Position numbers and translations under genes: made by a program. From assembly GCF_009914755.1 (NCBI RefSeq), contig NC_060933.1: a DNA stretch of 64,000 bases; one strand, written 5' to 3'. Below the pieces are notes generated by a model. That model was not told the origin of the DNA and did not search any database. It was given only the letters and a program-made list of their open reading frames with translations. Shown here piece after piece: positions 27,053 to 55,140 of the stretch (the stretch's first letter is position 1; each line of letters begins with the position of its first letter). Source of the stretch: the human T2T-CHM13v2.0 reference genome, Homo sapiens.

Positions 27053-27484
27053 TTATTTCCAAACACTGAAATTTATTTATTTACTTCTTTTCATTATGTA
27101 TCGCAATCAGAGAAGTGTATTTTGGAGCTTTAGAACTTCGAGAGATGAATGTGAAACAGCAACGAGAACCTATCTGTTTAACCTTGGTTTCTCTAATTGA
27201 TTTCCATATTGTGATTATAAAATTACTCTCACCTTTCTCATTTACTTGTTAAAATTTTTTCTTCTCAGTAGGTGTTTTACTGCCTCCTTCACATCCTTGT
27301 TTCTAAGACTGTAGATTAAAGGATTCATCATGGGAGTCATCACCCTGTAGAATATGAATATAAGTTTGTCAGTGGCATCCAAGTCATCTGAATTAAGTGT
27401 CTCTTGAGACTTGGGCTTCATGTACATGAGGAAGATGGTCCCACAGAATGTTATCACCACAGTCAGACGAGCTGAGCAGGTAGA

Positions 27485-30342
<2,858 letters not shown>

Positions 30343-33683: not shown

Positions 33684-34411
33684 GCTGAACAGGTAGAGGA
33701 AGCTTTGCTTCTCCCCTCGGAAGAGCTAATTTTGAAGATGCTCACAATGATTAACGTGTAAGAGACAATGATTAATAACAAAGGTGTCAATATGAACAAT
33801 GTTGTGGCCACAAGCATGATGAACTCATTGTCTGAGATGTCAGCACAGGCCAGTTTCATGACAGCCAGAATTTCACAGGTGAAATGATTGATGATGTTAT
33901 TCCTGCAGAAAGGCAATTGTACCACAAACACTGATTGTACTGCAGAATTGACAGCTCCTATGATCCAGGACCCAGCTGCCATGGGTACATAGGCATCCTT
34001 ACTCATGATGATGGGATATCTCAGAGGGTTGCAGATAGCCACATAGCGGTCAAAGGCCATCATGCCCAGAAGCACACACTCTGTTGTCCCCATGGCCAAG
34101 CCGAGGAACATCTGCACTGCACAGCCAGAAAGGGAAATGGTCTTTCTTTCTGAAAGGAAGCTCACTAGCGTGGAGGGAATAGAGGTGGTGGTGTAGCAGA
34201 TGTCCAAGAAGGAGAGGTTCCCCAGAAAGAAGTACATAGGGGTGTGAAGGTGAGGGTCCAAGATGCTGATTAAAATGAGAGTACCATTCCCCAGAAGGAT
34301 GACCACATACATTATGAAGATGAGCACAAAAAAGAGTAACTCAAGTCTTGGGTGACCAGAAAGTCCCTTCAGAAAAAATTCCACCAGAATGGTGTGGTTT
34401 TCCCATTCCAT
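33455..34411 (-). CDS. OR13C2: Olfactory receptor 13C2 (318 aa)
   Basis: OR motifs present (KASSTCSAH variant); C-terminus LLNRRFFSK. Confidence 0.95.
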
Positions 34412-34424
34412 TTTACTCTCTATT

Positions 34425-34445
34425 TAACCTGTAAGAGAGAGCATG
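34425..34445 (-). promoter_or_regulatory. Predicted splice acceptor of the OR13C2 coding exon
   Basis: Minus strand ctctctcttacAG|gttaaatagagagtaaaATG (AG at 34430-34429); equivalent site in OR13C9 at 47009-47008. Confidence 0.7.
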
Positions 34446-36161: not shown

Positions 36162-36468
<307 letters not shown>

Positions 36469-36514
36469 CCATTTTATTTTAATAGAAAACATGACCTATA
36501 ATTCTCTAGTTATG

Positions 36515-38530
36515 GACTTTTGTGCAGCCAATTGCATGATGTATGTTGTAAATGTTAACAAAAAAATGTGATTTCTCTTTGGGAAGATACATAGTTTTAA
36601 ATACATGCACAAAACAGGTATACATGTAAAATTTATTAAATATATTATTAAAATCTTTGAAATAACCTATTTTCTGCTGCCTAGATTTAATGAATTCTAT
36701 GTAAATATTGTTATCAAATTCTTGTATACCTAGAATCCTTTTGTTATATAGGCTTAGTTTCTATGTTAGTGTAGTGTAGATAGATTTATGGTTAATATAT
36801 CATCTTCATAAATTATAACTTATCATTAATTGATGTATCTTTATTCTATTTGACACTTTAAAGTTTAATTCTACTTTTATGATATTGATATTACACTCCC
36901 GCTTTCTTTTAGTTTGCTTTTGTCTGCTATCTCTTTGTACAACTTCTTATTTTTAACTTCTCTTTTTCACTTTGTTTAAAGTATACTACTTTTAAATAAC
37001 AAATATCAGAGTATGTTTTAACTACTTTTTAAATGTTTGGGTCATTTATGAGAATATTCAGACTATTCTATTTACTTTAACATAATTATTAATGTACTAC
37101 ATCTTATTCTTTCCATCATACTTTATTTTTATTCATTATTTGAATTATTGCATTCTCTTTTTCCCAGTTTTTTATTTTTGCTAATTGACGAAGTTGTCAT
37201 TCACTATTTGTTTTCATTAAGTTGAACACTACTCATTTTTTTCATTCAGGAAGTGATTGCCTTCTTTTTCTCTCCTCATAATTTAACTTCTAAGGCCATA
37301 AACTGTTTTCTCCAATAGGGTGTGCTCTAATCACCTTAATTATCCCTGAAATCTAAATGAAGCCAAAACTCAAAATACTTTTACTCCACTTTTATTCTAA
37401 TCTCCTAATTCCTAGGTTTTACTGGTATAATACTTACAAAGTCCTTACAATCTGCCTTTTTAAGAGTTCCTTTTCAGCCTTTAGATTATACAAGCTTGGA
37501 TAGTCAATATGTCTAACTATCTATACATATATTCATTGATCATCATTGATCCCTTTTTTTCACTCTCTTGAGGATTGTATTTATTGTTTTGTGTTTGATT
37601 ATAGTATATTTGCAGCAATTTTCCTCGATGAGAATGTGAGTAATATATACTCACATCAATCCCTATAGATTACCAAATGTCTTCCTTTTATATCACAGGC
37701 AAAAGTTTATGAATTTTGGCCCACACATTCTGTGTCTGAGATATAGCCTAAGGAAATAATAAAGATAGTTATATACAAAATGGAACACATAGTTATATAT
37801 TTTATATATAGAAAATATATCTTATATGCAACATAAATATACAAATATTATATATACAGTACACACAAAAAAAAATTGTGACTGTTATCATTAATTGACA
37901 TATCTTTATCCTATTTGATACTCTGTTATTAGCTGAAAAGAATATTTAAGAAACCAGTGACCAAAATCCCAGGGAACTTTCAAACAGAAATTCCCTAATA
38001 CCTCCCACTCTGTGGCAATATTTATCAAAATAACAAATACATATATATATAACATTTGACCACAGACTGACTTCTCAGTAATTATCATACAGGTATACTG
38101 GCACATGCCAAAGAGATTTTAATAGAAATGGATTCATTAAAGTATCATTTGTAACAGCAGATGTAGCAAACAATTTAAATTTCCACAAGAAGAAAACATA
38201 GAAATAATGCAATATTGTACTGCCGTCACAAGGAGTAAGGATGTTTTGTGCACTGATGTGGAAAGATCTTCAAGAAACATTAAATGGAAAAGTAATAGAA
38301 CAGTATATATGGTACACTATCATTTGTGTAAAAAAGATTATATATATATGTGTATGTGTATATATACATGCATGTATTTTTGTTCACACATAGAGTATCT
38401 CTAGAAAAATAAACAATAGTTTTTATCCCCAGAAAAGGGAATATATAGCTTATTAATTGGGGCGGGACTGTTAACAGTATACCCTTTAGCACATTTTTAA
38501 AATTTTGAACCTTGTGAATGTATTTCCTAT
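36515..38530. mobile_element. Old L1M/L1ME fragments (both orientations)
   Basis: T-rich antisense L1-like stretch, then sense L1ME 3'-like stretch; highly diverged. Confidence 0.5.
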
Positions 38531-39937
38531 TAATAAAATAATATTTAAGCTAAAGAGTTCTTGTTTGTGGGATTCCTAGCCTTTCTCCTTTCACCTTTCC
38601 AATAGCATACTACATTAAAGCCATCCGTTGCCATAGGACATGACCACATGCATTTGAAAACTGTTCTAACTTGTTCAATATCACACACTAAATGGTAATT
38701 GCTGAGGATGAACAGGTACTTTATAGTCACATTCCCAATACTTAAGATAATTTATTTAGTATCAGTAGGACTTGCAGTACTATGTCTGTCTCATTTCCTA
38801 CCAACAAGCTCTAGGCTATTCTTTGACCTGGCTTAGGGTCTAACATCCAATTCCATGTCACTTTTTTTCCACGAAACATTTTAATGTTTTTATGATCTAG
38901 AAAATTTCCTGGAATAAAATTATGGTTCAGTAAATGTTGGCTATTATTCTTTTCCATTTTCAGGTTCAAGGAGCCTTTTATCTTCAGAATATTTCCTCCA
39001 CCTAACATTATGAGGTACTTTGCTGTGAATCTCAGGTCCATCTTCTCAATTTCGAGACATAATTAGTCTCCTCAGGATCACTTCAAACCCAACCTGATTT
39101 CCCTATTCTAAATTCCCCCTATCGTTCTGTAGCTTTTCATACAATTTACATTTTCTAGAATTTTTCAGATTTTCTGGATTAAGGTATTAACTACTTGAGA
39201 CCCCAGAGGGCATTTTACAATGCGGAGTTCTTTGAATAATGGAGATTATATGCAAACCTGTAAAAATCTGCTCTCTGCAAAAATTATTGTTTCATGAGCT
39301 ACCTCTGTGCTACAAGATATACCATCAAGCATATTTCATAATATTGTCAAGGTCACAGACTTTGGAAGAGGCTTGGTTCAAATGCCATCTCTGCCCCTTA
39401 TTAACTAGGTGACCTGGACATGTCTCTGATCACCATAGTCATCAGTAGAATGAAGATATGGACAACATCTATACCATGTACTTGTGCATAAGATTAAATG
39501 AAATGATGTGTATAACTCACTTAGCACAGCAAGGGTTCCTATTGTTAGTGGTTTCCTTCATGCTTGGCTTTAATGACTTTTCATTCTGTTAAGAGTTTTT
39601 TTGACATCCCTGAACTAGTCATTATCATCCTTCCATGAGGTCAGGTATATGTGGCTTACTTAGTCAGATCACACACTATGTTCTAATAAATGGTATTATT
39701 TTCATTTTTTAAAAATTAGGATACGTTTTATCACAGTCACTCCAACACTTTGGATGCCAGTGAATTAGGTGGCAGAAAAGAAAAATCATCCAAAAGATCC
39801 ACCTTTTATCGAAGTCAATTTATTTCATAAAAAAGATAGGATTTTATTTTTTTTCATGTTGATAACAGTTTATTGTGTCCTCTTATATTTGACAGTTTTA
39901 TTGGATATAAAACCTTATCTTTTTTTTGAAGTCTTCT

Positions 39938-40056
39938 TTTTATTATTATACTTTAAGTTCTAGGGTACATGTGCACAATGTGCAGGTTTGTTACATATGT
40001 ATACATGTGCCATGTTGGTGTGTTGCACCCATTAACTCATCATTTACGTTAGGTAT
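39938..40056 (-). mobile_element. L1PA 3'-end stub
   Basis: ttattattatactttaagttctagggtacatgtgcacaatgtgcaggtttgttacatatg. Confidence 0.9.
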
Positions 40057-40869
40057 AAAAGATAAGATTTTAATAAGGTGCCAGTGTGTTGCTAGTTTTA
40101 AAACACATGACTGAGTTTTTCTTGACTGAAACTATTTTAACATCTTGAGCAAGCCTATTAACATAAAAGAGGAAAAGGAAAGTTACTCACTATTACAATC
40201 ATGACCTAATGACAGAAAAGCAAATATTCAAAATAGTCGCCAATGCTAATGCAAACACATAAGGATATTCCCTAAGATGATCTCTTTCTGACTATGCATT
40301 CCTTTGGCAAATTATATATTTCAGATCCCAAGAGATTATTTAGTTTTTTTTTTTATTTTCCAAATTTGTCATAATGTTCTCCTCACATGATACTGTTGTA
40401 TAAAGAGTCCCTGTCATATTACCTAGCACACCGTTCAACTGGTTCACTGGTAACTGAACCAAATTGACCTGAGTTACTGCTAGGGAACCACAGTCAAGGA
40501 TTTGTTTAATATGAATTCTATACTAAAGAACACACAATCTGCTATTTACTGTGTAATAAGCTTTAATTAGCTTAAGTAGATGATACAGTGTCCAAATACT
40601 TTGTAATGTCATAAAAAACTGCACACTGACATAAAGTAATTCACAAGGGCTGGGCAAATTCAGTTTTTGTTCAATTGCCTTTGCATGCAGAACTGCTCTT
40701 TTGGTCTCATGGTTTTTATTTTGTTCCTACTACATCCCAGTGAATAGACACTTAAATTCCATTTCCAATATTCAAAGTCACTCTCAAATCAGAAAAAAAA
40801 AATGTCATTTTCAAACTGATTTAACCAATCAGTCCAAGTCTCTCTTACAGTTGAAACATTGTTCTTGTT

Positions 40870-41440
40870 TTTGCAATAACTTACCTCCAAACCAGAGGTT
40901 GCCTCTCTTTATAGGGTGCAACAGCAACAGACAATTTTGTCTTACTTTTCTACTTGCAGCCAGTCTTCATAGCCACTCATTAGTAGCTGAATCTCCAAAG
41001 AGGCAAGACGAGTGAGTAATCATTTTGTCATAGAAATTGATTGACTAGTTGATGTTTACAGAAACATGGTGTTATGGACATGATTACTAGGATAAAGTGT
41101 CATGAAATTCTTCTAGTTCAGAAAAAGTATCATCAGATTCCTCTAGTTTAAAAATAGAAAGAAAATTAATATTTGGCAATAAATTTTAGGAATAGGGCAA
41201 ATTGAATTTGCCTCTGAAGTGCATGCTGAAATACCATCCCATTGTGGAGACCCACAAATTCCTAAAGATCTGCCTCAGGATTTAAGAGACAATTTAAATA
41301 TTTAAGGACTCTTCTAAACCTCTGTGCACAACTTTAAATTGCCTCCAAGATGAAAGGTGTATAAAACTTATGAAACTTCAGAAATAAAGCCCTGAAGACC
41401 TAATTATGGGAGGCCTATTACTCTATTTCATACACAAAAT
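40870..41440 (-). promoter_or_regulatory. Candidate promoter and non-coding exon 1 of OR13C2
   Basis: Paralogous to 50800-51390; minus-strand donor AG|GTAAGT at 40885/40884; TAATTA at 41401. Confidence 0.6.
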
Positions 41441-41589
41441 CAGAAGGGAGCTTCTCTCTCTCTCTCTCTCTCTCTCTCAATCTCTCTCATCATTTTGGAA
41501 GTATAACTGATGTTTTCTGTACACAAATTTCCCATTCACTTTATGGATTTAGTTTACAGTAAAAGTTGACTCTGAATAAACATATATTT

Positions 41590-41880
41590 ACAGATGGTGT
41601 GAAATAATATGCATTGAGTAAAAACTGTACTTCAAGAAACATACAACCATTCTACTTTTCATCTTCAGCACAATATTCAATAAATTACTTAGGATATTCA
41701 ACACTTTAATATAAAATAGGCTTTGTGTTACATGATTCTGCCCACCCATAGGCTAATGTAAGTCTTCTGAGCACATTTAAGGTAGGCCAGGCTAAGCTGT
41801 GATGTTTGGCAAGTTAGATAAACTAAATGCATTTTCAATGTATGATATTTTCATGTAAAGATGAGTTTATTGGTATACTC
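41590..41880. mobile_element. Tigger4-like DNA transposon fragment
   Basis: 'ggctaatgtaagtcttctgagcacatttaaggtaggccaggctaagctgtgatgtttgg'. Confidence 0.75.
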
Positions 41881-42953
41881 TTTGACATTGATATATTTTC
41901 ATTTATTCTAACGGTGATATATACTGTAAAAAAAAGAATGAAAGGACAGAAGGAAGAGAAGGATGGAGGAATGGGAAAAGGATAAAGGAAGGAAGAGAGG
42001 GAATAAAAGAGGAAAGAAGACAGGGACAGAAAGAGAAGGTAAAAGAAGGCAAGACAAGAAAAGATATCCTCAAGCAGTATATAATGGTGTAAAAAACAAA
42101 GCCAAGAATAAACTATAATTAAATAGCCTGGCAAAAACCACAGTTCAGAAAGAAGGCTGATACTAATCATAAAACAATGTAATAACTTAGGCTAAAATAA
42201 TTTGCCTTTCTCTAATGAGAGCAAACTGAGGCATCTTAAGGCTGAACACTTCTGAATGATTGTTTTCATTTTTTCTCTTCTTTATTTTTAAAATTTATTT
42301 TTATCAAAATAATTTCAAAATTTATTCAGACAGAATTCTAAAAGTGAAATGAGTGGGTCAAAATCAATGAAGATTTTTTATGAATCTAAAAGGATAATAC
42401 TAATGTAGTGTTATGGTGTCGCTAATTTTATCTTCCTCTTATCAACACTGGATGTTGTCAATAATTTAGATTTTCAATCTAATCTAAAGGGCTTAAAATG
42501 GTATCTTGTCATTATTGTAAATGGCATTTTAATCTTTATAGATATTTACTATTTACATTTTGGTGTGTCTTAAAGAGTTTTATTTTCTTTCATGTGAGTT
42601 GTGCACTCATGTCCTCTATTCATTTTTCTATTGTGTATTTTACATTTTTACACTGGTTTCTTAAATATTCTTTTCAGCTAATAACAAAGTATCAAATAGG
42701 ATAAAGATATATCAATTAATGATAACAGTCACAATTTTACATTTTTAAATCACTTGTTTACATGAAATGTATTATATATATATACTCTATGAAACTTGTA
42801 GAAAGAACATCTGCAAATATAAAAATGCCTCAGACACAGTCCTCACCTTCAAGAATCATATAGTTAGTAAGAAAAACATTCATGTAATTAGTGAATTTCA
42901 ATACAAAGTGGTGAAAGCTGTGATTAAAGTGATGGCTTAGTGTGCTATGGAAG

Positions 42954-43021
42954 TGAAACAGGAAAAATTCCCTTATCCCCCTGGCAGAGCATGTGATGGG
43001 GGTGTGGCTTGCTTCTTCAGT
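42954..43021. mobile_element. ~68 bp terminal stub of an ERV1 LTR (MER48-like, from memory)
   Basis: tgaaacaggaaaaattcccttatccccctggcagagcatgtgatgggggtgtggcttgcttcttcagt, then abrupt truncation. Confidence 0.6.
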
Positions 43022-43033
43022 TACACTAAGAAT

Positions 43034-43110
43034 TGTAGATTTTGCTATCTGGTAGAAATTTTTGCTATCTGGTAGAAATGGCAGATTTTGCTATCTGGTA
43101 GAAATGGTAG
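43034..43110. repeat. Four tandem copies of ~20-23 bp ttttgctatctggtagaaa
   Basis: Single copy at the paralogous site 31445-31470. Confidence 0.9.
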
Positions 43111-43170
43111 ATTTTGCTGTCTGGTAGAAAAATCACAGGAACACGCACACACTACAAACACACACACACA

Positions 43171-43206
<36 letters not shown>

Positions 43207-43568
43207 ATACATGACTGTTATATCAGATAAGTTTATCTTACTTTGTCTCCAAATTAGAAAAAACAAATTGCTAACAACAAAATGATCCTCCATAAGCTTT
43301 TAAAATAAAATTTCTGAATGAAAACTCCTCTAGAGGCTCAAGTATTAAAATAAAGCATTATGTCAGTATTATAATGATTGTGTATTTTGCCCAGCAAATT
43401 TGAACACATAAATATATCAAGACAGTTAACATGCCTTTATTTTCTTCAGACCTTGATTCTACAACCCTGTGAGAGAAAAACTCTCCTAATATTCTCCTGT
43501 AAGGAGAAATGTGTGCTTTAAAATTTCTTCTTCCTTTAATTAATTTTCTATCAAAAATGTATAAATCT

Positions 43569-44455
43569 CTAATATCCAGAATCTACAAAGAACTTAAACA
43601 AATTTACAAGAAAAAAACAAACAACCCTATCAAAAAGTGGGCAAGATATGAACAGAAACTTCTCAAAAGAAGACATTTATGCAGCCAACAGACACATGAA
43701 AAAATGCTCATCATCACTGGTTATCAGAGAAATGCAAATCAAAACCACAATAAGTTACCATCTCACGCCAGTTAGAATGGTGATCATTAAAAAGTCAGGA
43801 AAAAACAGGTGCTGGAGAGGATGTGAAGAAATAGGAATGCTTTTACACTGTTGGGACTGTAAACTAGTTCAACCATTGTGGAAGACAGTGTGGAGATTCT
43901 TCAAGGATCTAGAACTAGAAATACCATTAGACCCAGTGATCCCATAACTGGGTATATACCCAAAGGATTATAAATCATGCTACTATAAAGACACATGAAC
44001 ACCTATGTTTATTGCGGCACTATTCACAATAGCAAAGACTTGGAACCAGCCCAAATGTCCATAATGATAGACTGGATTAAGAAAATGTGGCACATATATG
44101 CCATGGAATACTATGCAGCCATAAAAAAGGATGAGTTCATGTCCTTTGCCGGGACATGGACGAAGCTGGAAACCATCATTCTCAGTGAACTATCACAAGG
44201 ACAGAAAACCAAACACTACATGTTCTCACTCATAGGTGGGAATTCAACGATGAGAACACTTGGACACAGGGTGGGGAACATCACACACTGGGGCCTGTCG
44301 GGGGGTAGGGTGTTGGGAGAGGAATAGCATTAGGAGAAATACCTAATGTAAATGACGAGTTGATGAGAGCAGCAAACCAACATGGCACATGTATACCTAT
44401 GTAATAAACGTGCACATTGCGCACATGTACCCTATAACTTAGAGTATAATAATAA
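43569..44455 (+). mobile_element. 5'-truncated L1PA (approx. PA6-PA7) inserted in block B copy 2
   Basis: ORF2 C-terminal remnants and 3'UTR; TSD aaaaatgtataaatct / aaaaatggtataaatct; empty site at ~31886-31902. Confidence 0.92.
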
Positions 44456-46031
44456 AAAATGGTATAAATCTGATGTAACACTATGGAGCCACCTGAGTCA
44501 TCCCAGAGAATTTATCAAAGTGGCTGGATTTAAGTTGTGAAGGAAAACAAAATTAGCATTTGAGCATTCAAGACAACCTGACTATGAGTCAAACATAAAA
44601 TGCCTGACTTCCGGAGTTTTCTACCTACCAGGAATTCTTAGTGGGTGCAAAAAGTCCAATGAACTCGTGTATGGGAACTAATAGATTTTCACAGCCCATT
44701 TTGTCAGGATGTAAATTTAATTATCAATAATTTCAACTCTTGCCATCAGATTTAATCTGTAAACAACTATGATGGATATATTTAAATATAGTTTGTGACT
44801 GTTTAATATTCTTTCCACTAAAATTAACAAGTGAACTTGGGAAGATTAAACGAGTGACTAAACCCAAAGATTCCACAAGCAGGTAATTCTTACTTGTCTA
44901 CGTAAAATATGTTTATGCCCAATATACTCTAAATTCACTGGTCCATTAATAAAAATTGCTTCAGCTAAACTGATTACCTAGAAGGTGGTTCACTCCTGAA
45001 CACACTTCATCATTCATCTTGGGCTGTAAATTTAAAATGTTCTTCACATAGAGTAAAATGTTGACGTAAAAACCAAGGAAAAGCAAGATAATGTCTGACA
45101 TTCCCCAATCCTCTTCTTCCTCAAATTAAGCTGGTTAGTAACAGAGACAAGACATGAATAGTATTTGTACTAAAAATTAAGAGCTTGGACATTCTTCTAA
45201 GACTTGGAAAAATATTGGAATTCCCTCGGGATAGCAAAAAAATTGGGCATCTTCTAAATGGGCATTGATAGGACACTCCATTCAACCCAAAACTAGTCCA
45301 CATTATTATCTGGACCAGTAGACTGATTTTCAAACCTATTTTTAATTTTGCAAAATGTTCTTTATGCTAAAGCCAACCTATAAGTTAAAGCAAAGAAAGA
45401 CCATAAAGCAGGATATCCCGATTGATTGCATAGGCCCTGCTTTTAAACTCTATTTATCTCCTGCCCCTTGATAGTCCCAAATACTCAGCTTCACACAAAA
45501 ATATTTAAATACAGAACAAGAAAATAGTATTTAATGACTCAACAGGATCTGGAGATTAATGTGAAACTATAACACAAGGCTTGCCACTGGAAAATGTGAG
45601 TGCAGTATATTGGGTTTTTTTCTGTTTTGCTTTTTCTACAACAGAGGGCTTTATTTATTTTGAAAGAGTCAATGAAATGTTGCCTATGAAATAACATTAT
45701 GTAGAAAAGTGAACATAAAAAGGCACATCACACCCAATTCCAATACAGCAAAAATTTAAAAACCATAATACGAAAGATACTGTTCAAAATGTTGAAAAGT
45801 AGCCATTTCCCACTATTAGAGTAATAGGTAGCCCCTCTGTCTTCTTCATCCTACTGCCCTGTATCTTGCAAATTCTCTAGAGTGGACATGCAATAATTTT
45901 GAAATGCTGTATCTCATTATTTTAACATAATATATGAAAATGCAGAAAAATAGTAAAAGTATCCAAAATTCTAACATAATTCTGAAGTTTCAACAATATC
46001 AAGTGTGTTCACACTCCAGTACATTTTGCAT

Positions 46032-46988
46032 TCACTTGCTAAAGAACCTTCTGTTCGGTAGGTGTTTTACTGCCTCTTTCACATCCTTGTTTCTAAGACT
46101 GTAGATTAAAGGATTCATCATGGGAGTCATCACCCCATAGAACATGGATATAATTTTGTCGGTAGCATCCAAGTCATCTGAATTAAGTGTCTCTTTAGAC
46201 TTGGGCTTCATATACATGAAGAGGATGGTCCCATAGAATATTATGACCACAGTCAGATGGGCTGAGCAGGTAGAGAAAGCTTTGCTTCTCCCCTCAGAGG
46301 AGTGAATCTTGAGGATGCTGGAAATGATTAATGAGTAAGAGATAACTATCAAGAGCAGTGGCATCAATGTGAACAATATTGTGGCCACAAGCATGAGGAA
46401 CTCATTGCCTGAGATGTCAGCACAGGCCAACTTCATGACAGCTAGAATTTCACATGAGAAATGATTGATGACATTCTTCCTGCAGAAAGGCAATTGTACT
46501 ACAAATGTAGTTTGTACTGCAGAGTTGACAATCCCTGCAAACCAGGACCCAACAGCCATGGGTACATAGGCATTCTTGCTCATGATGATGGGATATCTCA
46601 GAGGGTTGCAGATAGCCACATAGCGGTCAAAGGCCATCATGCCCAGAAGCACACACTCTGTTGTCCCCATGGCCAAGCCAAGGAACATCTGCACTGCACA
46701 GCCAGAAAAGGAAATGGTCTTTCTTTCTGAAAGGAAGCTCACTAGTGTGGAGGGAATAGAGGTGGTGGTGTAGCAGATGTCCAAGAAGGAGAGGTTCCCC
46801 AGAAAGAAGTACATAGGGGTGTGAAGGTGAGGGTCCAAGATGCTGATTAAAATGAGAGTACCATTCCCCAGAAGGATGACCACATACATTATGAAGATTA
46901 GCACAAAAAAGAGTAACTCAAGCCTTGGGTGAACAGAATGTCCCTTCAGAAAAAATTCCACCAGAATGGTTTGGTTTTCCCATTCCAT
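46032..46988 (-). CDS. OR13C9: Olfactory receptor 13C9 (318 aa)
   Basis: OR motifs including KAFSTCSAH; distinctive [20 protein letters not shown] and LPNRRFFSK. Confidence 0.95.
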
Positions 46989-47689
46989 TTAAATGTCTCT
47001 CTTTTACCTGTAAGAAGTCAAAAAAATTAATATAATTTATTTACATGGTAAATCCAAGTATACCAATGTACAAATATAAAAATTTGCCACGGACCCATAA
47101 AAGTATTGAAGAAAGAGAAAATAGGGAAGAGGAGGAAGGAATATACGGAAATGGAATGAAAAGAATTAACAATGCAGGAAGAGAAATATGAGGGGAAAGC
47201 TTATGATATTGATCACTCATTCTTGGCCAGGAACTTTGTGATTTTTTTTCACATTACTTAATTTAAACTCCACATTATCATTTGAAAGATAAGAAAACCT
47301 AAAGTGAGAGAGTTCAGCCTAAAGTCATATAACTAATGTGTAGCAAAGCCTAGGCTCCAAGACTACCTGTTTGTGTCCCATACTTGCCTGAGGTTTTTTA
47401 ATGAATTATAAAAGCAATACAGAGTGTATTGCATAAGAGATTTGGTAATTTACTTTAAAACCTCACTCCCAGGTCAGGAGAACTCAACAATAACCCATAT
47501 GTATTCCAACACTGAAAGAAGTGTGTCAATCTGGAGGGAGAATCATCAGAAATGAACCCAACCAGTGATTACTGCATTCCTGATTATCCAGAGAACACGA
47601 CCAATTCATGTAAAGCCCAATAATATGAAATCTTCGTGTTAAAGTGCAAACACCTTTTTCTTTGGTTAGGGGTGGAATTTTTTTGTTGT

Positions 47690-48745
47690 TTTTTAAAATT
47701 ATCATACAGTTAGATGTCATACCATAAACTGACTTTTTATTTCCTAGTGTATGGTTCTGTGAATTTTAAAACATGTATAGATTCATATAACCACGGCCAT
47801 AACCAGAACACAGAACTCTTCTATTACCCCAAAACACTTCTTTGTGATATTCTTTTCTTAGTCACCTCTTCCACTTACCTGTACATCCTGGCAACCACTG
47901 ATATTTTCTATCCCTATAGTTTTACGTTTACCATAATGTCATATAAATACATATAAATAGAATCATATGAGCCACTGGGGTTGAGCTTCTTTCACTTAGA
48001 TAAAGCCTCTGAGATCCATTCAAGTTATTATTGCTAAATAGTATTCTATTGAGTAGATTACTGTATTTTGCCTATCTGTTCACCTTTTGAAGGATATTTG
48101 GATTGTTTCCAGTTTGGGGCAATTATGAATAGAGCTACTATAAATATTTCTGCCCCAATTTTTGTATAACCATAAGCTTTCATTTTTTTAGAATATCCAG
48201 GAATGAGACAATAAGCATGTTTAAATGTATAAGAAGCTGCCAAACAGTTTTCCAGAGTGGCTGTACCAGTTTTGCATTTCAACCAACAATGTATGAGAGT
48301 TCCACTTGCTTCCCATCTCATCATTTAATATTGTCAGTAATTTTTTATCCATTCTAATAGATAGTCATATTTAATTATGATTTTATTTTACATTTCCTTG
48401 ATGACTGATGATGTTTTTCCATTCTTTAGTAAAGTATCTTTTGCCCCCTTTTTTTGTTAACAAATGGGGGTCTCGCTATTTTCCCAGGCTGTCCTCAAAC
48501 TCCTGGCCTCAAGCCATTCTCCCACCTCAGCCTCTGAGTATCTGGGACTACAGATTCATGTAACTACCAGCTTAACCAGAACACAGAACTACAGGCATGC
48601 ACCACCATGCTGGTTCTATTGCTCATTTTTAATTTTTTTTCCTTGTTGAGTTTTGAGAGTTCTTTATATATTTTGGATATGAGTTATTTATCATGTGATT
48701 TGCATATATTGTCTCCCAGCAGCTGGTTTGTCTTCTCATTCTCTA
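47690..48745 (-). mobile_element. Old L1 (L1MB/MC-like) 3' fragment with an Alu monomer-like insert (~48450-48610)
   Basis: Minus ORF 48058-48324 resembles the L1 ORF2 end (LIHCW...AAS...LFIIAPNWKQSKYP). Confidence 0.8.
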
Positions 48746-50799
48746 ATGCAAACACCTTTTAGTTGCCATGTTAATTGGTTGCTGCCTAAGTCCAATTGAA
48801 CATGATGCAAAGAAAGACTACGACTAAAGAGACATGTTCTAACAGCACATCTCACTTTAGGTGATACTGCAGGAAAATATCCACTGGAAAATAGCCATTC
48901 CCTGGGAATTGGAAATGGTGGATTTTGCTTAAACTTGCCTCAGAAAGTCTCAAGCTATCTCTTTTAATTTTTTCTCAGGAACAGTCATTTCTCCCCACCC
49001 AACTACCCCTCTACACAAACAAATTTCCAGTAGTATCATTGTCCATTGATGAATATCTTCCACTTAGTTCACAAAACAAAAGTAATTTCTGAAAACAAAC
49101 CAGGCACTTAACACATAGGCCATTTTTCTTTATTCACAAAACTTGGCACAAGTTTAAGGTCTAAATTGAGTTGTTTGAACTTATTTCAACCAGCTTCTAA
49201 CTAACCAGCTCTGCCTTTGGCCATTATAAGGGTATTTCTCCTTTCAGCATATTTTGCCCTTATTTCCATCAACTCCACTTTTTATACTTTGGGATCCTTT
49301 TATACCCTAGAAATACATCCTTTTTTATCTAAATCCTAGATTCACTTTTTTAATTCTATGTTATAAATAATGCCACCTCAATTCCAATTCCCTGTTAAAT
49401 TATGACTGAGAAGCAATTTCATGGTAAGACACATTCTTCTAACCACTGCCACGATGCAGCTATTATTGTGTCAAGTCCACTTTGTCTAATAGAGAGAACA
49501 TGTGCTTAAGTCCTTTCTTGGCCAGTTACTAGCTGTGACCATGGGCAATTTATAAATTCTCTGAATCTCACTATCTTCATCTATAACATGGGGGTCTTAA
49601 TAGGCTTATAATGGGGTTCTCGGGAGAATAAATAGGCAAAGCATGTAAAGTACATAGCATGTAGTAAGCACTATTTTTGTTCCTTCTTATTTTCTACTGA
49701 CTTGTTCTTCTCTCAAGTTCTTTTATGTCTCTGTCCCCAGTATCAACCGCTGCACAAGTATCTTTGGAATTTCATCAATCACACTTTCTCATATATCAAG
49801 TCTCCTTTCATCTAAGTCAAACTATTTTTTATCACATTCATGATATGAGATAGATGCGCATTATACCAAAGTCTACTCACTTTGCAGTGAACAGTGTTAT
49901 ACCATTATAAAAAAAGTCCATTGCAGTTTAAAACAAGGAACATATAGGGTGACATTTTTAAATAGAGGCTATTTCAGTTAATTCATCTAAAATCTAAATG
50001 TGTGTGTGTATCTCACAAATGTTATATCTAAAGTCACCATACAAATGCATTACCAGCAACAAAAAAAATTAAAAATATTCAAACATCTCCAAAATACTCG
50101 CAAGCATAAGAAGCCAAAATTCTTCCTATTAACTAAAGACTCATTGCTCCTCTTCATTTGCGTTTTCACAAATTCAAAGATATATTCAAGAACAAGTAAT
50201 AAAGTGTTTGTGTTTCAAATAGTATGCCTAGTTAGAGGTTCTGGGACAGGGACCATGCTAGAACATTGTCTACTCATGATTAGTATTGGATGAACATTTG
50301 CTAAACTGAACAAAATCAAACTGAATTAGTGCTGTGATTTAAATGGCCACAGAATCAGAACTTTGGTGGTAACAGACTGCTTTGCATTCTGGACCAAGAG
50401 TACAGATTGGCAGCTTATTGAGCAACAGAAGAGAGATGATACTTTCAGATGCATATACATGTGCTTGTAATAAAGTGAGGACCACAAAACTGTATTTTGA
50501 CCAATGAATCTTTATTCCCAGTTAGAAATTATAAACCTATTCTGTAGAAGGACTGTTCATGAAAACAACTATAAACCTAAACATCATCTGTTTTGAATGC
50601 TCAAATTACTTTGGATATGCAAGTAGTCTTTTGATAATATTTTTTCTTTTTTTCTATTTTTTAACTATATCTGAAAAAATCCTCTTGGATTGTACACTTT
50701 CTCTAATAAGAAATACTACATTTTCAAAAGACATGGCTTATTTCAATTCATTTCATAAGGCTAACCACCACCCCCGCTTCGATTTGTGTTAGTAGTATG

Positions 50800-51390
50800 G
50801 CTTCAGCAATTACCTCTAAATGGAAGGTCAGCTCACTTCTTAGGTTGCAATACACAGCAGATTGTTTTGCCTTGATCTTCTGTTTTTAGGCTGTTCAACA
50901 AAATTTTCTGTGAAGCTGATGAATTTCTGAAGAAGGGATTACTGTTTGGAAGCCATGATGACACAGGGTATATTATCTGTAAAACATTGATAACAAAGGT
51001 ATTATTTCTAAGTTGTTTCAAAACAGCATACATTACATCAGCTATATTTACAAAGGAAGGCTAATGTGGTTCTGCTAGTTCAAAAGTAAGAGGAGAAGAA
51101 AATACTGGGCAGTTCACTTTGTGAATATGGCACATTTCATTTGCCCTTGAAGCCCAGGTGGAAACATTGTCCCATTGAGAAGGCCCAGGAAATTCTCTAA
51201 AGAATCTTCCTTGGGCTCAGGGAGGCAATTTAAATATTTCTTGCTCTCAGGGACTTCTGAAAATTTCTAAGTGATAACTTTAAATTGCTTCAGGCAAAAC
51301 ATATTCAAAACTTTTAGAAATTTCAAGAATAATGCCCTAAAGACTTAATCATATGAGACCCATTATTGTAATTTACATAACCAATCAGAA
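50800..51390 (-). promoter_or_regulatory. Candidate promoter and non-coding exon 1 of OR13C9
   Basis: Paralogous to 40870-41440; minus-strand donor AG|GTAATT at 50814/50813; O/E-like ctcagggag, ctcagggac, cccaggaa; TAATCA and CATTA sites. Confidence 0.6.
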
Positions 51391-51645
51391 GCCCTGAAGA
51401 CATGTCTTATCCCATTTTCAATCTATTACTATATACTGCTGAGATCCTTTCTCCAAATATATTCTAATCACTTGGTCCAGACCTTTGTTCATCCTATCAT
51501 GTCATCTTGTATGTAGTACAGTAGAAAGAACTCAGACTACATTAAGTCTTCATTATTAACAATAATAATAATAGAATACAAATTTCCAGGCATCATTATA
51601 AGGGTTTTATAGATATTATGTCGTTTAATTTGTTTTTGTTAAATT

Positions 51646-52495
51646 AACCCCATCAAAAAGTGAGTGAAGGATATGAACAGACACTTCTCAAAAGAAGACA
51701 TTTATGCAGGCAACAGACACATGAAAAAATGCTCATCATCACTGGCCATCAGAGAAATGCAAATCAAAACCACAGTGAGATACCATCTCACACCAGTTAG
51801 AATGGCGATCATTAACAAGTCAGGAAACAACAGGTGCTGGAGAGGATGTGGAGAAATAGGAACACTTTTACATTGTTGGTGGGACTGTAAACTAGTTCAA
51901 CCATTGTGGAAGACAGTGTGGCAACTCCTCAAGGATGTAGAACTAGAAATACCATTTGACCCAGCCATCCCCATTACTGGGTCTATACCCAAAGGATTAT
52001 AAATCGTGCTGCTATAAAGACACATGCACACATATGTTTATTGAGGCACTATTCACAATAGCAAAGACTGGGAACCAACCCAAATGTCCATCAGTGATAG
52101 ACTGGATTAAGAAAATGTGGCACATATACACCATGGAATACTATGCAGCCATAAAAAAGGATGAGTTCTTGTCCTTTGTAGGGACATGAATGAAGCTGGA
52201 AACGATCATTCTCAGCAAACTATTGCAAGGACAAAAAACCAAACACCGCATGTTCTCACTCATATGTGGGAATTGAACAATGAGAACACTTGGACACAGG
52301 AAGGGGAACATCACACAGCGGGGCCTGTCGTGGGGTGGGGGGAGGGGGGAGGGATAGCATTAGGAGATATACCTAATGTAAATGACGAGTTAATGGGTGC
52401 AGCACACCAACATGGTGCATGTATACACATGTAACAAAGCTGCACGTTGTGCACATGTACCCTAGAACTTAAAGTATAATAAAAAAAAGAAAAAA
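51646..52495 (+). mobile_element. 5'-truncated L1PA (approx. PA4-PA5)
   Basis: ORF2 C-terminus ([11 protein letters not shown]...[16 protein letters not shown]), 3'UTR G-tract, poly-A. Confidence 0.92.
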
Positions 52496-52874
52496 CAAGT
52501 TTTAATGTATAACTAATCTAGAAATAATTGTATTTTGCTCTGAAATTGGAATTTAGATGTTATTGTAAATGTGGGTGGCATTTTGAAATTCACAACAAAT
52601 TCAGAAATGTTTAAATCATACGATAGAAATGTAGAAGCTATTTAGCTTTTTTATTGTTACTCCAGAAGCTAATTTGTAACTTCATCTCACTCCATACCGT
52701 AAGCATTTCCAAAAAATTCACCTAAACAGATAATACTATTCCCTAGATTTATTGGCATAAAAATCTTATCTAATTTACAGTGGGAGGAGGTGATGCAAAA
52801 CCATCCCAGATCACAAGGAATTGCTTCCTGGCCATCTTGTTAAGTTCTGATCTGTCACCATGTGGCTAAGCTTC

Positions 52875-55140
52875 TGATACCGTTTGGCTGTGTCCCCACC
52901 AAAATCTCAACTTGAATTGTATCTCCTAGAATTCCCACGTGTTGTGGGAAGGACCCAGTGGGAGGTAATTGAATCATGGAGGCAGGTCTTTCCCCTGCTA
53001 TTCTCATGATAGTGAATAAGTATCATGAGATCTGATGGGTTTATCAGGGGTTTCCGCTTTTGCTTCTTCCTCGTTTTCTCTTGCCGCCACCAAGTAAGAA
53101 GTCCCTTTCACCTCCTGCCATGATTCTGAGACCCCAGCCATGTGGAACTGTAAGTCCAATGAAAACTCTTTTTCTTCCCAGTCTCAGGTATGTCTTTATC
53201 AGCAGGGGGAAAACGGACTAATACAGTAAATTGGTACCAGTAGAGTGGGGCATTGCTGAAGAGATCCCCCAAAATGTGGAAGCGACTTTGGAACTGGGTA
53301 ACAGGCAGAAGATGGAAGAGTTTGGAGGGCTCAGAAGAAGACAGGAAAATGTGGGAAAGTTTAGAACTTCCTACAGACTTGCTGAATGGCTTTACCCAAA
53401 ATGTTGATAGCAATATGGATAATAAGGTCCAGGCTGAGGTGGTCTCAGATGGAGATGAGAAACTTGTTGGGAGCTGGAGCAAAGGTGACTCTTGTCATGT
53501 TTTAGCAAAGAGACTGGTGGCAATTTGCCCCTGCCCTAGAGATTTGTGGAAGTTTGAACTTGAGAGAGATGATTTTGGGTATTTGGCTGAAGAAATTTCT
53601 AAGCAGCAAAGCATTCAATAGGTGACTTGGGTGCTATTAAAGGCATTCAGTTTTATCAGGGAAGCAGAGCATAAAAGTTTGGAAAATTTGCAACCTGACA
53701 ATGTGATAGAAAAGAAAAATCCATTTTCTGAGGAGAAATTCAAGCTGGCTACAGAAATTTGCATAAGTAACCAGGAGCCAAATGTTAATCCCTAAGATAA
53801 TGGGGAAATTGTCTCCAGGGCATGTCAGAGGTCTTCACTGCAGCTCCTCCCATCACAGGCTGGAGGCCTAGGAGAAAGTGGTTTCGCTCGCCCAGGGAAC
53901 CCCTGCTGGGTGCAGCCTAGGGACTTGGTGCCCTGCGTCCCAGCTGCTCCAGATGTGGCTAAAAGGGGCCAATGCAGAGCTCGGGCCATGGCTTCAGAGG
54001 GGGTAAGCCTCAAGCCTCAGAAGCTTCCACATGGTGTTGAGCCTGCAAGTGCACCGAAGTCAAGAATTGGGGTTTGGAAACCTCTACCTAGACTTCAGAA
54101 GATGTATGGAAACACCTGGATGTCCAGGCAGAAGTTTGCTGCAGGGATGGGGTGCTCATGGAGAACTTCTGATAGGGCAGTGCAGGAGGGAAAAGTGGGG
54201 TTGGAACCCCCACACAGAGTCCCTACTGGGGCACTGCCTAGTGGAGCTGTGAGAAGAGGGCCACCACCCTCCAGACTCCAGAATGGTAGATCTACCAACA
54301 GCTTGCACCATTTGCCTGGAAAAGCCACAGACACTCAATACCAGCCTGTGAAAGTAGCTGAGAAGGAGGCTGTACTCTGCAAAGCCACAGGGTCAGAGCT
54401 GCCCAAGACCATGGGAATGCACTTCTTGCATCAGTGTGACCTGGATATGAGACCAGAGTCAAAGGAGATCATTTTGGAGCTTTAAAATTTAACTGCCCTG
54501 CTGGATTTCGGATTTGCATGGGCTCTATAACCCCTTTGTTTTGTCCAGTTTCTCCAATTTGGAACGGTTGTATTTACCCGATGTCTGTATCCTCATTGTA
54601 TCTAGGAAGTAACTAGCTTGCTTTTGATTTTACAGGCTCATGAGTGAAAGGGACTTGCCTTGTCTCAGATGAAACTTTGGACTGTGGACTTTTGGATTAA
54701 TGCTGAAATGAGTTATGACTTTGGGGGACCGTTGGGAAGGCATGATTGGTTTTGAAATGTGAGGACATGAGATTTGGAGGGGCCAGGAGTGGCATTATAT
54801 GGTTTGGCTGTGTTCCAACCCAAATCTCAGCTTGAATTCTATCTCCCAGCATGTGTTGTGGGAGTGACATAGGGGAGGTAATTGAATCATGGGAGCCAGT
54901 CTTTCCTGTGCTATTCTCATGATAGTGAGTAAGTCTCAAGAGATCTGATGGGTTTACCAGAGGTTTCTTTTTTGCTTCTTCCTCATTTTCTCTTGCTGCT
55001 GCCATGTAAGAAGTGCCTTTTGCCTCCCACAATGATTCAGAGGCCTCCCCTGCCATGCAGAACTGTAAGTCCAATTAAACCTCTTTTTCTTCACAGTCTC
55101 AGGTATATCTTTATCAGCAGCATGAAAACAGACTAATACA
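52875..55140 (+). mobile_element. Full-length THE1 (THE1A-like) MaLR: LTR 52875-53225, internal 53226-54794, LTR 54795-55140
   Basis: Two homologous LTRs ending GACTAATACA; THE1-int sequence; TSD gcttc / gtttc. Confidence 0.93.

What the first reader, a model, noticed from the sequence alone, without database searches (positions are those of the whole stretch)
40870..51390. Hidden paralogous promoter/exon-1 module upstream of OR13C2 and OR13C9
Seen: 40870-41440 and 50800-51390 align collinearly although I could not align the sequence around them. Examples: ttacctccaaaccagaggtt vs ttacctctaaatggaaggtc; caatttaaatattt; actttaaattgc; gccctgaagacctaattatgggaggcctatta vs gccctaaagacttaatcatatgagacccatta. 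The gene-proximal edge of both is a minus-strand splice donor (GTAAGT at 40884, GTAATT at 50813). Established: OR genes have 5' non-coding exons several kb upstream, with AT-rich promoters bearing Olf1/EBF (O/E) and homeodomain (Lhx2) sites; such motifs occur here. Inference: exon 1 splices 40885 to 34428 for C2 and 50814 to 47007 for C9, possibly via internal exons.
Basis: partly seen in the sequence, partly recalled or inferred. Interest (0 to 1): 0.7.

Follow-up and report, generated by a model that had tools for sequence, protein, structure and literature searches.

The report
Shared promoter cassette of OR13 genes
The two look-alike blocks are real and are most likely the unannotated promoters and first non-coding exons of the smell-receptor genes OR13C2 and OR13C9, built around a short cassette that seven neighbouring or related receptor genes also carry: a useful annotation but an ordinary kind of element.

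Summary
Observation confirmed. Window 40881-41446 and 50810-51391 align collinearly on the minus strand (62.7% over 590 columns, E 1e-39), and their flanks do not align. Whole-genome BLAST finds only these two copies, so this is not an interspersed repeat.

Profiles built from the distal ~260 nt found seven more copies. Each lies 0.65-7.3 kb upstream of an OR coding exon, in that gene's orientation: OR13C8, C3, C4, C1P, D1, F1, and OR2K2 6.7 Mb away. Conserved blocks are a homeodomain site (TAATTR), GGGAC..GTCCC half-sites and two TTTAAATTG boxes.

At OR2K2 the cassette ends 159 nt upstream of a HAVANA-annotated, RNA-seq-supported non-coding exon 1. The OR13C9 donor (50814) is a RefSeq exon edge. 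OR13C2 has GAG|GTAAGT at the homologous place (40885).

Not shown: the two junctions and the transcription start sites. No canonical O/E site is present. The RefSeq exon is internal to a read-through lncRNA.

RefSeq and HAVANA 2020 give OR13C2 and OR13C9 coding exons only. This is a new member of a known kind. OR13C genes are the human "OR37" type, whose mouse promoters are published.

The parts
41136..41450 (-). OR13C2 promoter cassette (distal conserved block). Homeodomain site TAATTA at 41401-41406, degenerate GGGC..TTTCT half-site region, box A (ACTTTAAATTGC on the + strand) at 41331-41342, box B (CAATTTAAATATTT on the + strand) at 41290-41303.
   Evidence: z=54 against the OR13C9 copy. 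Matches the 8-sequence profile at 41449-41206, E 9e-40. Alignments.
40885..41135 (-). Predicted OR13C2 non-coding exon 1. The 5' end is not mapped: probably 41040-41135 by analogy with OR2K2, or about 41271 if box B acts as the TATA box. Donor GAG|GTAAGT, last exon base 40885.
   Evidence: Donor scores 7.7 bits against a background of 0.06 such sites per kb per strand. The proximal 171 nt are conserved with OR13C9, z=10.6. No RNA evidence was seen.
34412..34428 (-). Start of the OR13C2 coding exon: 17 nt of 5' UTR behind the acceptor CTCTCTCTTACAG| (AG at 34430-34429).
   Evidence: Part of the conserved island 34417-34607 ~ 46996-47184.
51086..51395 (-). OR13C9 promoter cassette. Homeodomain-site variant GATTAA at 51345-51350, box A at 51277-51288, box B at 51226-51239.
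   Evidence: (51392-51139, E 1.7e-42).
50814..51085 (-). Predicted OR13C9 non-coding exon 1. 50814-50976 is an annotated exon of the RefSeq lncRNA LOC107987105, with an internal acceptor TTTTACAG| at 50977. Donor GAG|GTAATT, last exon base 50814. The TATA-like TAAATATAG at about 51049-51040 suggests a start near 51015.
   Evidence: Gene table supplied with the finding. Sequence. Donor scores 4.2 bits. The TSS estimate is inference from the OR2K2 spacing.
46989..47007 (-). Start of the OR13C9 coding exon: 19 nt of 5' UTR behind the acceptor TTTTTTTGACTTCTTACAG| (AG at 47009-47008).

Best explanation
Each block is the promoter region plus the first non-coding exon of the OR gene downstream of it on the minus strand: OR13C2 for 40885-41450 and OR13C9 for 50814-51395.

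The distal ~260-310 nt is an old, family-specific promoter cassette. In gene orientation it reads: homeodomain site TAATTR, about 9 nt, GGGAC-N4/5-(G)TCCC, about 40 nt, CTTTAAATTG, about 45 nt, ATTTAAATTGCC, about 15 nt, TGGCNGGTCCTTTGGAG. It was duplicated together with the gene and kept by selection while all surrounding non-coding DNA diverged beyond alignment.

Inferred mechanism. In an olfactory neuron that has chosen the gene, LIM-homeodomain (Lhx2-type) factors and possibly O/E-type factors bind the cassette. Transcription starts roughly 100-200 nt downstream of it. The ~200-400-nt exon 1 ends at the GAG|GTAAGT or GAG|GTAATT donor. It is spliced over a 6.5-kb (OR13C2) or 3.8-kb (OR13C9) intron to the acceptor 17 or 19 nt before the ATG.

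Shown: homology, copy number, placement and orientation of nine copies, splice-site consensus, one RefSeq exon edge, and one HAVANA exon 1 next to a copy. Inferred: factor binding, TSS position, and the two junctions.
For: 1. The homology is real and island-like.

2. It is not a repeat. Whole-genome BLAST gives 2 places for the OR13C2 block, 2 for the OR13C9 block, 1 for the OR13C8 cassette, 2 for OR13C3 (itself and OR13C4) and 1 for OR13F1. Two degenerate cassette patterns hit only known copies genome-wide, plus one likely chance site on chr3.

3. A profile made from OR13C2 and OR13C9 alone found copies upstream of three genes within 204 kb: OR13D1 (E 2.6e-7), OR13C8 (E 1.4e-6) and OR13F1 (E 0.022). 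The 5-sequence profile added OR13C1P (E 2.2e-15), OR13C3 (E 1.3e-7) and OR13C4 (E 1.4e-6). The 8-sequence profile added OR2K2 (E 3.5e-17), 6.7 Mb away. All 9 of 9 copies lie 0.65-7.3 kb 5' of an OR coding exon and in its orientation.

4. The HAVANA GTF of PMC7055050 (supplement 5) gives OR2K2 a non-coding exon 1 at ATG+1673 to ATG+1750. In this genome the donor CAG|GTAACT and the acceptor at ATG+49 are at exactly those offsets. The cassette ends 159 nt upstream of that exon and covers about -325 to -160.

5. The RefSeq exon 50814-50976 ends at the OR13C9 donor (annotation supplied with the finding).

6. Donors of 7 bits or more occur within 900 nt downstream of 3 of the 8 cluster cassettes, against 0.06 per kb expected. 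GAG|GTAA donors lie 520-589 nt from the cassette start in OR13C2, OR13C9, OR13D1 and OR13F1.

7. General OR gene structure and promoter make-up match. [quoted passage not shown] Passages of PMC12547500 describe HD, O/E and TBP motifs, with ~300 bp being sufficient.
Against: - No RNA evidence was seen for either junction or for any TSS of OR13C2 or OR13C9.
- The only annotated use of the OR13C9 exon is as an internal exon of a predicted read-through lncRNA. Its next exon lies outside the window, so there donor 50814 does not join 47007.
- No canonical O/E site (TCCCNNGGGA with 1 mismatch or fewer) occurs in any of the 9 cassettes. Matches with 2 mismatches and plain homeodomain-site counts are not above shuffles.
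- In OR13C2 and OR13C9 the GGGAC..GTCCC block is the most degenerate of all copies.
- Cassette GC content (34-37%) equals the window average of 36%, so AT-richness does not discriminate.
- Consistent orientation is expected for any element that duplicates with its gene, so it shows linkage rather than promoter function.
- O/E sites with 1 mismatch or fewer lie elsewhere: 34510 (100 nt 5' of the OR13C2 ATG) and 48898 (OR13C9 intron). These could mark other promoters.
- The HAVANA OR2K2 exon is tagged RNA_Seq_supported_partial, so its 5' end is approximate.
- Expression of the three genes in human olfactory epithelium is very low (supplement tables).
Confidence: 0.7

Rival explanations
1. The cassette is a conserved gene-linked regulatory element (enhancer-like), or the promoter or exon of non-coding read-through transcripts. 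The OR13C2 and OR13C9 mRNAs would then start elsewhere, for instance just upstream of the coding exon.
For: The RefSeq exon 50814-50976 belongs to a lncRNA and is internal there (supplied annotation; acceptor seen). RefSeq and HAVANA give both genes single-exon models. An O/E-like site with 1 mismatch lies 100 nt 5' of the OR13C2 ATG at 34510. Orientation is conserved by descent alone.
Against: At OR2K2 the cassette sits directly upstream of the OR's own annotated exon 1. The acceptors 17 and 19 nt before the ATGs are strong, and the region around them is one of the few conserved islands. A consensus donor follows the cassette in most copies. The single-exon models reflect low expression (passage on lowly expressed ORs in PMC12547500).
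Confidence: 0.15
2. The two blocks are decaying relics of an ancestral promoter that no longer drives OR13C2 or OR13C9 in humans.
For: The OR13C2 and OR13C9 copies score lowest against the family profile (133 and 142 bits, against 138-169 for the other six) and have lost the GGGAC..GTCCC block. Expression is very low. A passage of PMC3247239 suggests primate OR promoters may be under relaxed constraint.
Against: The two copies still share 66-68% identity over ~300 nt while the flanks are unalignable. They also share derived changes, so the variant form has itself been kept since their split. The OR13C2 donor is a perfect consensus. The OR13C9 exon is spliced in at least one annotated RNA. All three genes have non-zero counts in several olfactory samples.
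Confidence: 0.08
3. Both blocks are copies of an old interspersed repeat, or a chance similarity.
For: RepeatMasker or Dfam could not be run. The genome search tool skips very common words.
Against: E 1e-39 and z=54. Only 1 or 2 places genome-wide for five different copies. All nine copies are upstream of related OR genes and none lies elsewhere in 204 kb at E below 0.1. There are no Rfam matches.
Confidence: 0.02

Closest known systems
OR2K2 promoter and non-coding exon 1 (HAVANA model OTTHUMT00000053636, PMC7055050 supplement 5)
   Same: Carries a homologous cassette (profile E 3.5e-17) with TAATTG, GGGACAATATCCC and both TTTAAATTG-type boxes. The cassette is followed by a short non-coding exon, a GT donor, a ~1.6-kb intron and an acceptor 49 nt before the ATG.
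   Different: The intron is shorter. The sequence between cassette and donor does not align with OR13C2 or OR13C9. Its transcript evidence exists, whereas theirs does not.
Mouse OR37 / 'family 262' promoters (Hoppe et al. 2003 Genome Res; Hoppe et al. 2006 Genomics; Zhang, Breer and Strotmann 2007 Mol Cell Neurosci)
   Same: OR13C genes carry the six-residue insertion in the third extracellular loop that defines OR37 receptors: 7 of 7 OR13C-type genes have it and 0 of 5 others do (definition in a passage of PMC3499762). From memory, these papers describe conserved motif blocks just upstream of the start sites of that family, bound by O/E and LIM-homeodomain factors.
   Different: I saw these papers only as titles in reference lists, because they are not held. 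Sequence-level identity of their motif blocks with this cassette is therefore untested. Here the cassette also serves genes without the insertion (OR13D1, OR13F1, OR2K2).
Minimal class II OR promoters such as M71 and MOR23 (homeodomain plus O/E sites within ~300 bp of the TSS)
   Same: A short upstream region with a conserved homeodomain site and TATA-like AT-rich boxes, followed by a non-coding exon 1 spliced to an acceptor just before the ATG (review passages).
   Different: There is no canonical O/E site, only GGGAC..GTCCC half-sites in the reverse order of the O/E palindrome. The cassette is conserved across a whole family.
Greek Island composite Lhx2/Ebf motif (Monahan et al. 2017, PMC5608512)
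   Same: A homeodomain site and O/E-like half-sites lie close together (about 9 nt apart) at fixed spacing in most copies.
   Different: There is one copy per gene, close to an exon 1, rather than an intergenic enhancer. The composite motif matrix is given only as a figure, so it could not be scored. That paper reports the composite motif as depleted in OR promoters.
V1R promoters conserved within subfamilies (PMC1955453)
   Same: Promoter regions duplicated with the genes and still alignable among paralogues (title and abstract; passages held nothing further).
   Different: A different receptor family and organ.

Membership tests
OR gene promoter plus 5' non-coding exon | Upstream non-coding exon with a GT donor, and an AG acceptor shortly before the ATG of the coding exon | tested here: met
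   Donors at 40885 (7.7 bits) and 50814 (4.2 bits). Acceptors at 34428 and 47007 with pyrimidine tracts. This shows sequence consensus only.
OR gene promoter plus 5' non-coding exon | The exon is present in RNA and is joined to the coding exon | tested here: inconclusive
   50814-50976 is a RefSeq exon, but of a lncRNA, and it is not joined to 47007 there (supplied annotation). There is no data for OR13C2. HAVANA 2020 gives coding-only models for 8 of 8 OR13 genes looked up.
OR gene promoter plus 5' non-coding exon | Homeodomain (Lhx2-type) site within a few hundred bp upstream of the TSS | tested here: met
   TAATTR occurs at the same aligned position in 7 of 9 cassettes. OR13C2 has TAATTA, OR13C9 has GATTAA and OR13D1 has TAATCA. 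Site counts alone are not above shuffles.
OR gene promoter plus 5' non-coding exon | O/E (Olf/Ebf) site TCCCNNGGGA within a few hundred bp upstream of the TSS | tested here: not met
   0 of 9 cassettes have a site with 1 mismatch or fewer, and 2-mismatch sites are at the shuffle expectation. Only GGGAC..GTCCC half-sites are present, and they are degenerate in OR13C2 and OR13C9.
OR gene promoter plus 5' non-coding exon | Mapped TSS in olfactory epithelium (CAGE or RACE) | not testable with these tools
   No such data are held. Olender Table S8 (OR transcript structures) is not among the supplements held as text.
OR gene promoter plus 5' non-coding exon | Homology to a promoter that has transcript support | tested here: met
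   The OR2K2 cassette lies at -325 to -160 from the HAVANA exon 1.
Interspersed repeat | Many dispersed copies unrelated to gene context | tested here: not met
   1-2 places genome-wide for five queries. All nine copies are next to related OR genes.
OR37 subfamily (for the genes served) | Six-residue insertion in extracellular loop 3 | tested here: met
   Present in OR13C9, C2, C5, C3, C4, C8 and a 9p relative (7 of 7). Absent in OR13D1, OR13F1, OR2K2 and two other ORs (0 of 5).
Greek Island enhancer | Composite Lhx2/Ebf motif, intergenic position, Lhx2/Ebf ChIP signal | not testable with these tools
One copy per gene next to an exon argues for a promoter.

The most novel reading that the evidence does not exclude
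The cassette may be more than a generic OR promoter. It could be a family-specific address code that confines this clade, the human counterpart of the rodent OR37 'patch' receptors and their relatives, to one neuron population. The code would consist of a homeodomain site, GGGAC..GTCCC half-sites in the reverse order of the O/E palindrome, and two TTTAAATTG boxes, with no canonical O/E site. It has been kept across nine genes whose proteins are only 54-66% identical.

In addition, gene conversion homogenised the OR13C2, OR13C9 and OR13C5 coding exons and stopped exactly at the acceptor. Near-identical receptors are therefore driven by promoters only 63-68% identical. OR13C5, which has no cassette of its own, may be expressed from the OR13C2 exon 1 by alternative splicing, giving one promoter and two receptors.
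Probability: 0.2. Interest if true: 0.55.

Novelty: new member of a known kind. Interest (0 to 1): 0.35.

Why it matters
RefSeq and the 2020 HAVANA curation describe OR13C2, OR13C9 and the six other OR13 genes of this cluster that I looked up as bare coding exons. These coordinates give testable first exons, introns and promoters for them. That information is needed to interpret regulatory variants and copy-number changes, and to quantify expression of these lowly expressed receptors.

The cassette also offers a compact, alignable promoter family (nine copies in one genome) in which to test which motifs set OR choice frequency or expression zone. The contrast between 90-100% identical coding exons and 63-68% identical promoters in OR13C2 and OR13C9 is a natural experiment on promoter versus coding-sequence effects.

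The general principle, that OR genes have upstream non-coding exons and homeodomain-containing promoters, is long established.

Tried and rejected
- Rfam scan of 40000-52000: 0 matches.
- Bacterial sigma-70 and terminator scan: irrelevant to a human locus, 3 sites against 1.9 expected.
- Enrichment of O/E sites (2 mismatches or fewer) and of homeodomain hexamers by count: not above shuffles.
- AT-richness: the cassettes have the same GC content as the window.
- Tandem Repeats Finder did not report the ~29-nt imperfect internal duplication I thought I saw by eye at about 41091-41148. It reported only (TC)18 and a 9-mer.
I used BLAST and IUPAC patterns instead.
Negative controls for ORs outside family 13 therefore rest on ~1.5-kb flanks only.
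- The 8 kb upstream of an OR on chr1 (50% identical, probably OR13G1) has no cassette (best E 1.8). A 9p OR13C-type gene gave only a marginal hit (E 0.019).
- Reading box B as the TATA box would put the TSS near 41271 and 51206. This is not favoured because at OR2K2 the annotated exon starts about 190 nt downstream of box B.
- The composite-motif sequence could not be obtained from text.
- Hoppe et al. 2003 is not held.

Full report

Reading the two stretches and aligning them shows a collinear, same-strand similarity. BLASTN with short words gives 40881-41446 vs 50810-51391 at 62.7% identity over 590 columns, E about 1e-39.

In 500 dinucleotide shuffles each, the blocks behave as follows:
- The distal ~310 nt score z=54.
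- The proximal 171 nt, which end in the splice donor, score z=10.6, and 0 of 500 shuffles reach them.
- The ~100 nt in between are hardly alignable (z=3.1, 6 of 500).
- The upstream flank is not alignable (z=-0.8).
- The intron-side flank is almost not alignable (z=3.7, 3 of 500).

Between the OR13C2 unit (34412-43100) and the OR13C9 unit (46989-53500), the only other matches with E below 1e-5 are Alu-like repeat pieces, another shared repeat piece in inverted orientation, and a 190-nt island at the acceptor ends of the two introns, 34417-34607 vs 46996-47184 at 63%.

**It is not a repeat**

The window's genome is held, and whole-genome BLAST gives few places for each query:
- OR13C2 block: 2 places, itself and the OR13C9 block.
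- OR13C9 block: 2 places.
- OR13C8 cassette: 1 place.
- OR13C3 cassette: 2 places, OR13C3 and OR13C4 at 91%.
- OR13F1 cassette: 1 place.

The tool skips very common words, and RepeatMasker was not available, so this test is strong but not complete.

**What it is: a cassette shared by a gene family**

I fetched 70 kb on each side of the window and searched the resulting 204 kb with profiles.

- A profile built from OR13C2 and OR13C9 alone found three further copies of the distal part. One is at window 115793-115982 on the + strand (E 2.6e-7), 7.3 kb 5' of OR13D1. One is at -8547..-8364 on the + strand (E 1.4e-6), 6.3 kb 5' of OR13C8. One is at -67791..-67635 on the + strand (E 0.022), 0.65 kb 5' of OR13F1. 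The other 4 rows had E of 0.45 or more and were ignored.
- A 5-sequence profile added three more. These are 88041-87831 on the - strand (E 2.2e-15; OR13C1P), -30364..-30457 on the - strand (E 1.3e-7; OR13C3) and -39837..-39928 on the - strand (E 1.4e-6; OR13C4). Six further rows had E of 0.12 or more.
- An 8-sequence profile was run on 30 OR loci with ~1.5-kb flanks, taken from a protein search, plus three 8-kb upstream stretches. It found one new strong copy (L048 2075-1909, minus strand, E 3.5e-17). That copy lies 1.9 kb 5' of an OR coding exon 6.7 Mb away. A 9p relative gave only E 0.019, and a chr1 relative gave nothing.

All nine copies lie upstream of, and in the orientation of, the next OR coding exon. 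Of the 11 OR13 loci in the 204 kb, three have no copy: OR13C5 and the pseudogenes OR13D2P and OR13I1P.

Two degenerate patterns taken from the alignment match only known copies in the whole genome. The first gives 4 hits against 1 for the reversed control. The second gives 3 known copies plus one site on chr3 against 0 for the control.

**Anatomy of the cassette** (alignments; gene orientation)

- A homeodomain site comes first. It is TAATTG in OR13C8, F1, C1P, C3, C4 and OR2K2, TAATTA in OR13C2, GATTAA in OR13C9 and TAATCA in OR13D1.
- About 9 nt later comes GGGAC-N4/5-(G)TCCC. OR13C2 and OR13C9 carry the degenerate forms GGGCTTTATTTCT and GGGCATTATTCTT.
- About 40 nt later comes a CTTTAAATTG box, inverted in OR13C2 and OR13C9.
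- About 45 nt later comes ATTTAAATTGCC, the most conserved word.
- The last block is TGGCNGGTCCTTTGGAG.

Overall pairwise identity of the cassettes is only 34-61%, apart from OR13C2-OR13C9 (68%) and OR13C3-OR13C4 (92%).

A canonical O/E site is absent. 0 of 9 cassettes have TCCCNNGGGA with 1 mismatch or fewer, and 2-mismatch matches are at shuffle level.

A table in Young et al. 2011 lists a homeobox matrix, raaTTTAattgaa, as enriched in mouse OR promoters. The TTTAAATTG boxes resemble it but carry one extra A.

**Independent transcript support**

The distant gene is OR2K2. Its spacing from OR13C9 is 6,710,234 bp in hg19 (Olender Table S7) and 6,706,846 bp here. It has a 316-codon frame starting at G000:C9:123499792.

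The HAVANA GTF in supplement 5 of Barnes et al. 2020 (PMC7055050) gives OR2K2 a 78-nt non-coding exon 1 at ATG+1673 to ATG+1750, tagged RNA_Seq_supported_partial. Its coding exon starts at ATG+49. In this genome CAG|GTAACT and CCTCAG| lie at exactly those offsets.

The cassette covers about -325 to -160 relative to that exon's 5' end, and CATAAAA lies about 20 nt before it. One copy of the cassette is thus demonstrably the region just upstream of an OR's own first exon.

For OR13C9, the gene table supplied with the finding lists a RefSeq exon at 50814-50976. Its extent also coincides with the proximal conserved block.

**Splice sites**

The OR13C2 donor is GAG|GTAAGT, with last exon base 40885. 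It scores 7.7 bits on a rough matrix whose frequencies I recalled from memory. Sites of 7 bits or more occur at 0.06 per kb per strand in the 204 kb. The OR13C9 donor GAG|GTAATT scores 4.2 bits.

Within 900 nt downstream of the eight cluster cassettes, three have donors of 7 bits or more (OR13C2, OR13C8, OR13C4). OR13C2, OR13C9, OR13D1 and OR13F1 all have GAG|GTAA 520-589 nt from the cassette start.

The acceptors are CTCTCTCTTACAG|G at 34428 and TTTTTTTGACTTCTTACAG|G at 47007, which are 17 and 19 nt before the ATGs. Similar acceptors precede the ATG of OR13C8, D1, F1, C1P and C3.

**Most likely mechanism**

The distal block is the promoter region and the proximal block is the 3' part of a non-coding exon 1. 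That exon is spliced over 6.5 kb (OR13C2) or 3.8 kb (OR13C9) to the coding exon. This matches the published general picture:
- Homeodomain, O/E and TBP motifs lie within a few hundred bp of the start site, and ~300 bp are sufficient in transgenes (passages of PMC12547500).

Binding of Lhx2-type factors, the position of the start sites and the two junctions are inferences. The start sites are probably at 41040-41135 and 50977-51085, by the OR2K2 spacing. OR13C9 has TAAATATAG at about 51049-51040.

**Evidence against, and limits**

- No RNA data for OR13C2 or OR13C9 were available to me.
- In the RefSeq model the OR13C9 exon is an internal exon (acceptor TTTTACAG| at 50977) of a lncRNA spanning the whole cluster. 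Its next exon lies outside the window, so that mapped junction is not 50814>47007.
- Consistent orientation follows from co-duplication and does not by itself show promoter function.
- The canonical O/E feature of OR promoters is not met.
- O/E sites with 1 mismatch or fewer lie elsewhere: 34510 and 28298, about 100 nt 5' of the OR13C2 and OR13C5 ATGs; 48898 in the OR13C9 intron; and perfect sites at 32653 and 45222 in the 3' flanks.

**Relation to what is known**

HAVANA 2020 lists all 8 of the 8 OR13 genes I looked up (OR13C5, C2, C9, C8, C3, C4, F1, D1) as single coding exons. RefSeq does the same for the genes in the window. These promoters and exons are therefore not in those annotations. 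I could not check later GENCODE releases.

The OR13C proteins carry the six-residue insertion between TM6 and TM7 that defines the OR37 subfamily. 7 of 7 OR13C-type genes have it, and 0 of 5 others do, including OR13D1, OR13F1 and OR2K2. The definition comes from a passage of PMC3499762.

From memory, Hoppe et al. 2003 and 2006 and Zhang et al. 2007 described conserved promoter motif blocks for the mouse OR37 / family 262 genes. I saw these papers only as titles in reference lists and could not read them. The cassette is probably their human counterpart, but that is untested.

This is a new member of a known kind: unannotated human promoters and first exons of an already described type.

**Side observation on evolution**

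OR13C2 and OR13C9 are 90% identical from 2 kb 3' of the stop codon up to the ATG. Identity is 95-100% in the 5' part of the coding region. It drops to about 50% within 40 nt at the acceptor, at about 34420. The coding exons were therefore homogenised, by gene conversion or replacement, while the promoters stayed old and different (63-68%).

OR13C5 is a 91% copy of the OR13C2 coding exon plus 2.1 kb of its intron (27231-30352 vs 33444-36521). It has no cassette of its own.

**Verdict**

The promoter/exon-1 reading is well supported by homology and by two annotated exons. The specific junctions and the O/E claim are not shown. Confidence in the reading is about 0.7, and interest is moderate to low.

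Noticed in passing
window 33444-34420 vs 46021-46996 (and 27231-28205): The OR13C2, OR13C9 and OR13C5 coding exons are 95-100% identical in their 5' part. The OR13C2-OR13C9 identity collapses to about 50% within 40 nt at the acceptor/ATG (about 34420). This indicates gene conversion or replacement of the coding exon and 3' flank that stopped at the intron, leaving old promoters only 63-68% identical.
   Followed up: partly
window 27231-33455: OR13C5 is a 91% copy of the OR13C2 coding exon plus 2.1 kb of proximal intron, and it has no promoter cassette. Its acceptor is altered (TTACAAG|C). Candidate sources of a first exon are the OR13C2 exon 1 (40885) or strong donors at 31442 (8.6 bits) and 31576 (7.0 bits).
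   Followed up: partly
window 32653-32662 and 45222-45231: Perfect O/E palindromes (TCCCTCGGGA) sit about 800 nt 3' of the OR13C2 and OR13C9 stop codons, inside the 90% duplicated 3' flank. The first lies 4.4 kb upstream of OR13C5.
   Followed up: no
window 41453-41488: A (TC)18 microsatellite directly abuts the upstream end of the OR13C2 cassette and marks where homology with OR13C9 stops.
   Followed up: no
window -30318..-30576 and -39790..-40049 (loci L006, L005): The OR13C3 and OR13C4 cassettes are 91-92% identical to each other. This is far more than any other pair, so that duplication was recent and included the promoter. OR13C4 has AAG|GTAAGT and OR13C3 has AAA|GTAAGT 301-302 nt from the cassette start.
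   Followed up: partly
window 37833-37959 vs 42781-42651; 39934-40057 vs 52491-52368 and 44458-44339; 43623-44458 vs 51646-52488: 85-93% identical repeat pieces, some inverted, flank the OR13C2 and OR13C9 promoter regions. The ~840-nt piece has many diverged copies across the cluster and is probably an L1-type repeat.
   Followed up: no
G000:C9:123499879 (locus L026): An upstream in-frame ATG would extend the OR2K2 frame to 345 codons. It lies upstream of the annotated acceptor at ATG+49, so it is intronic in the HAVANA model.
   Followed up: no
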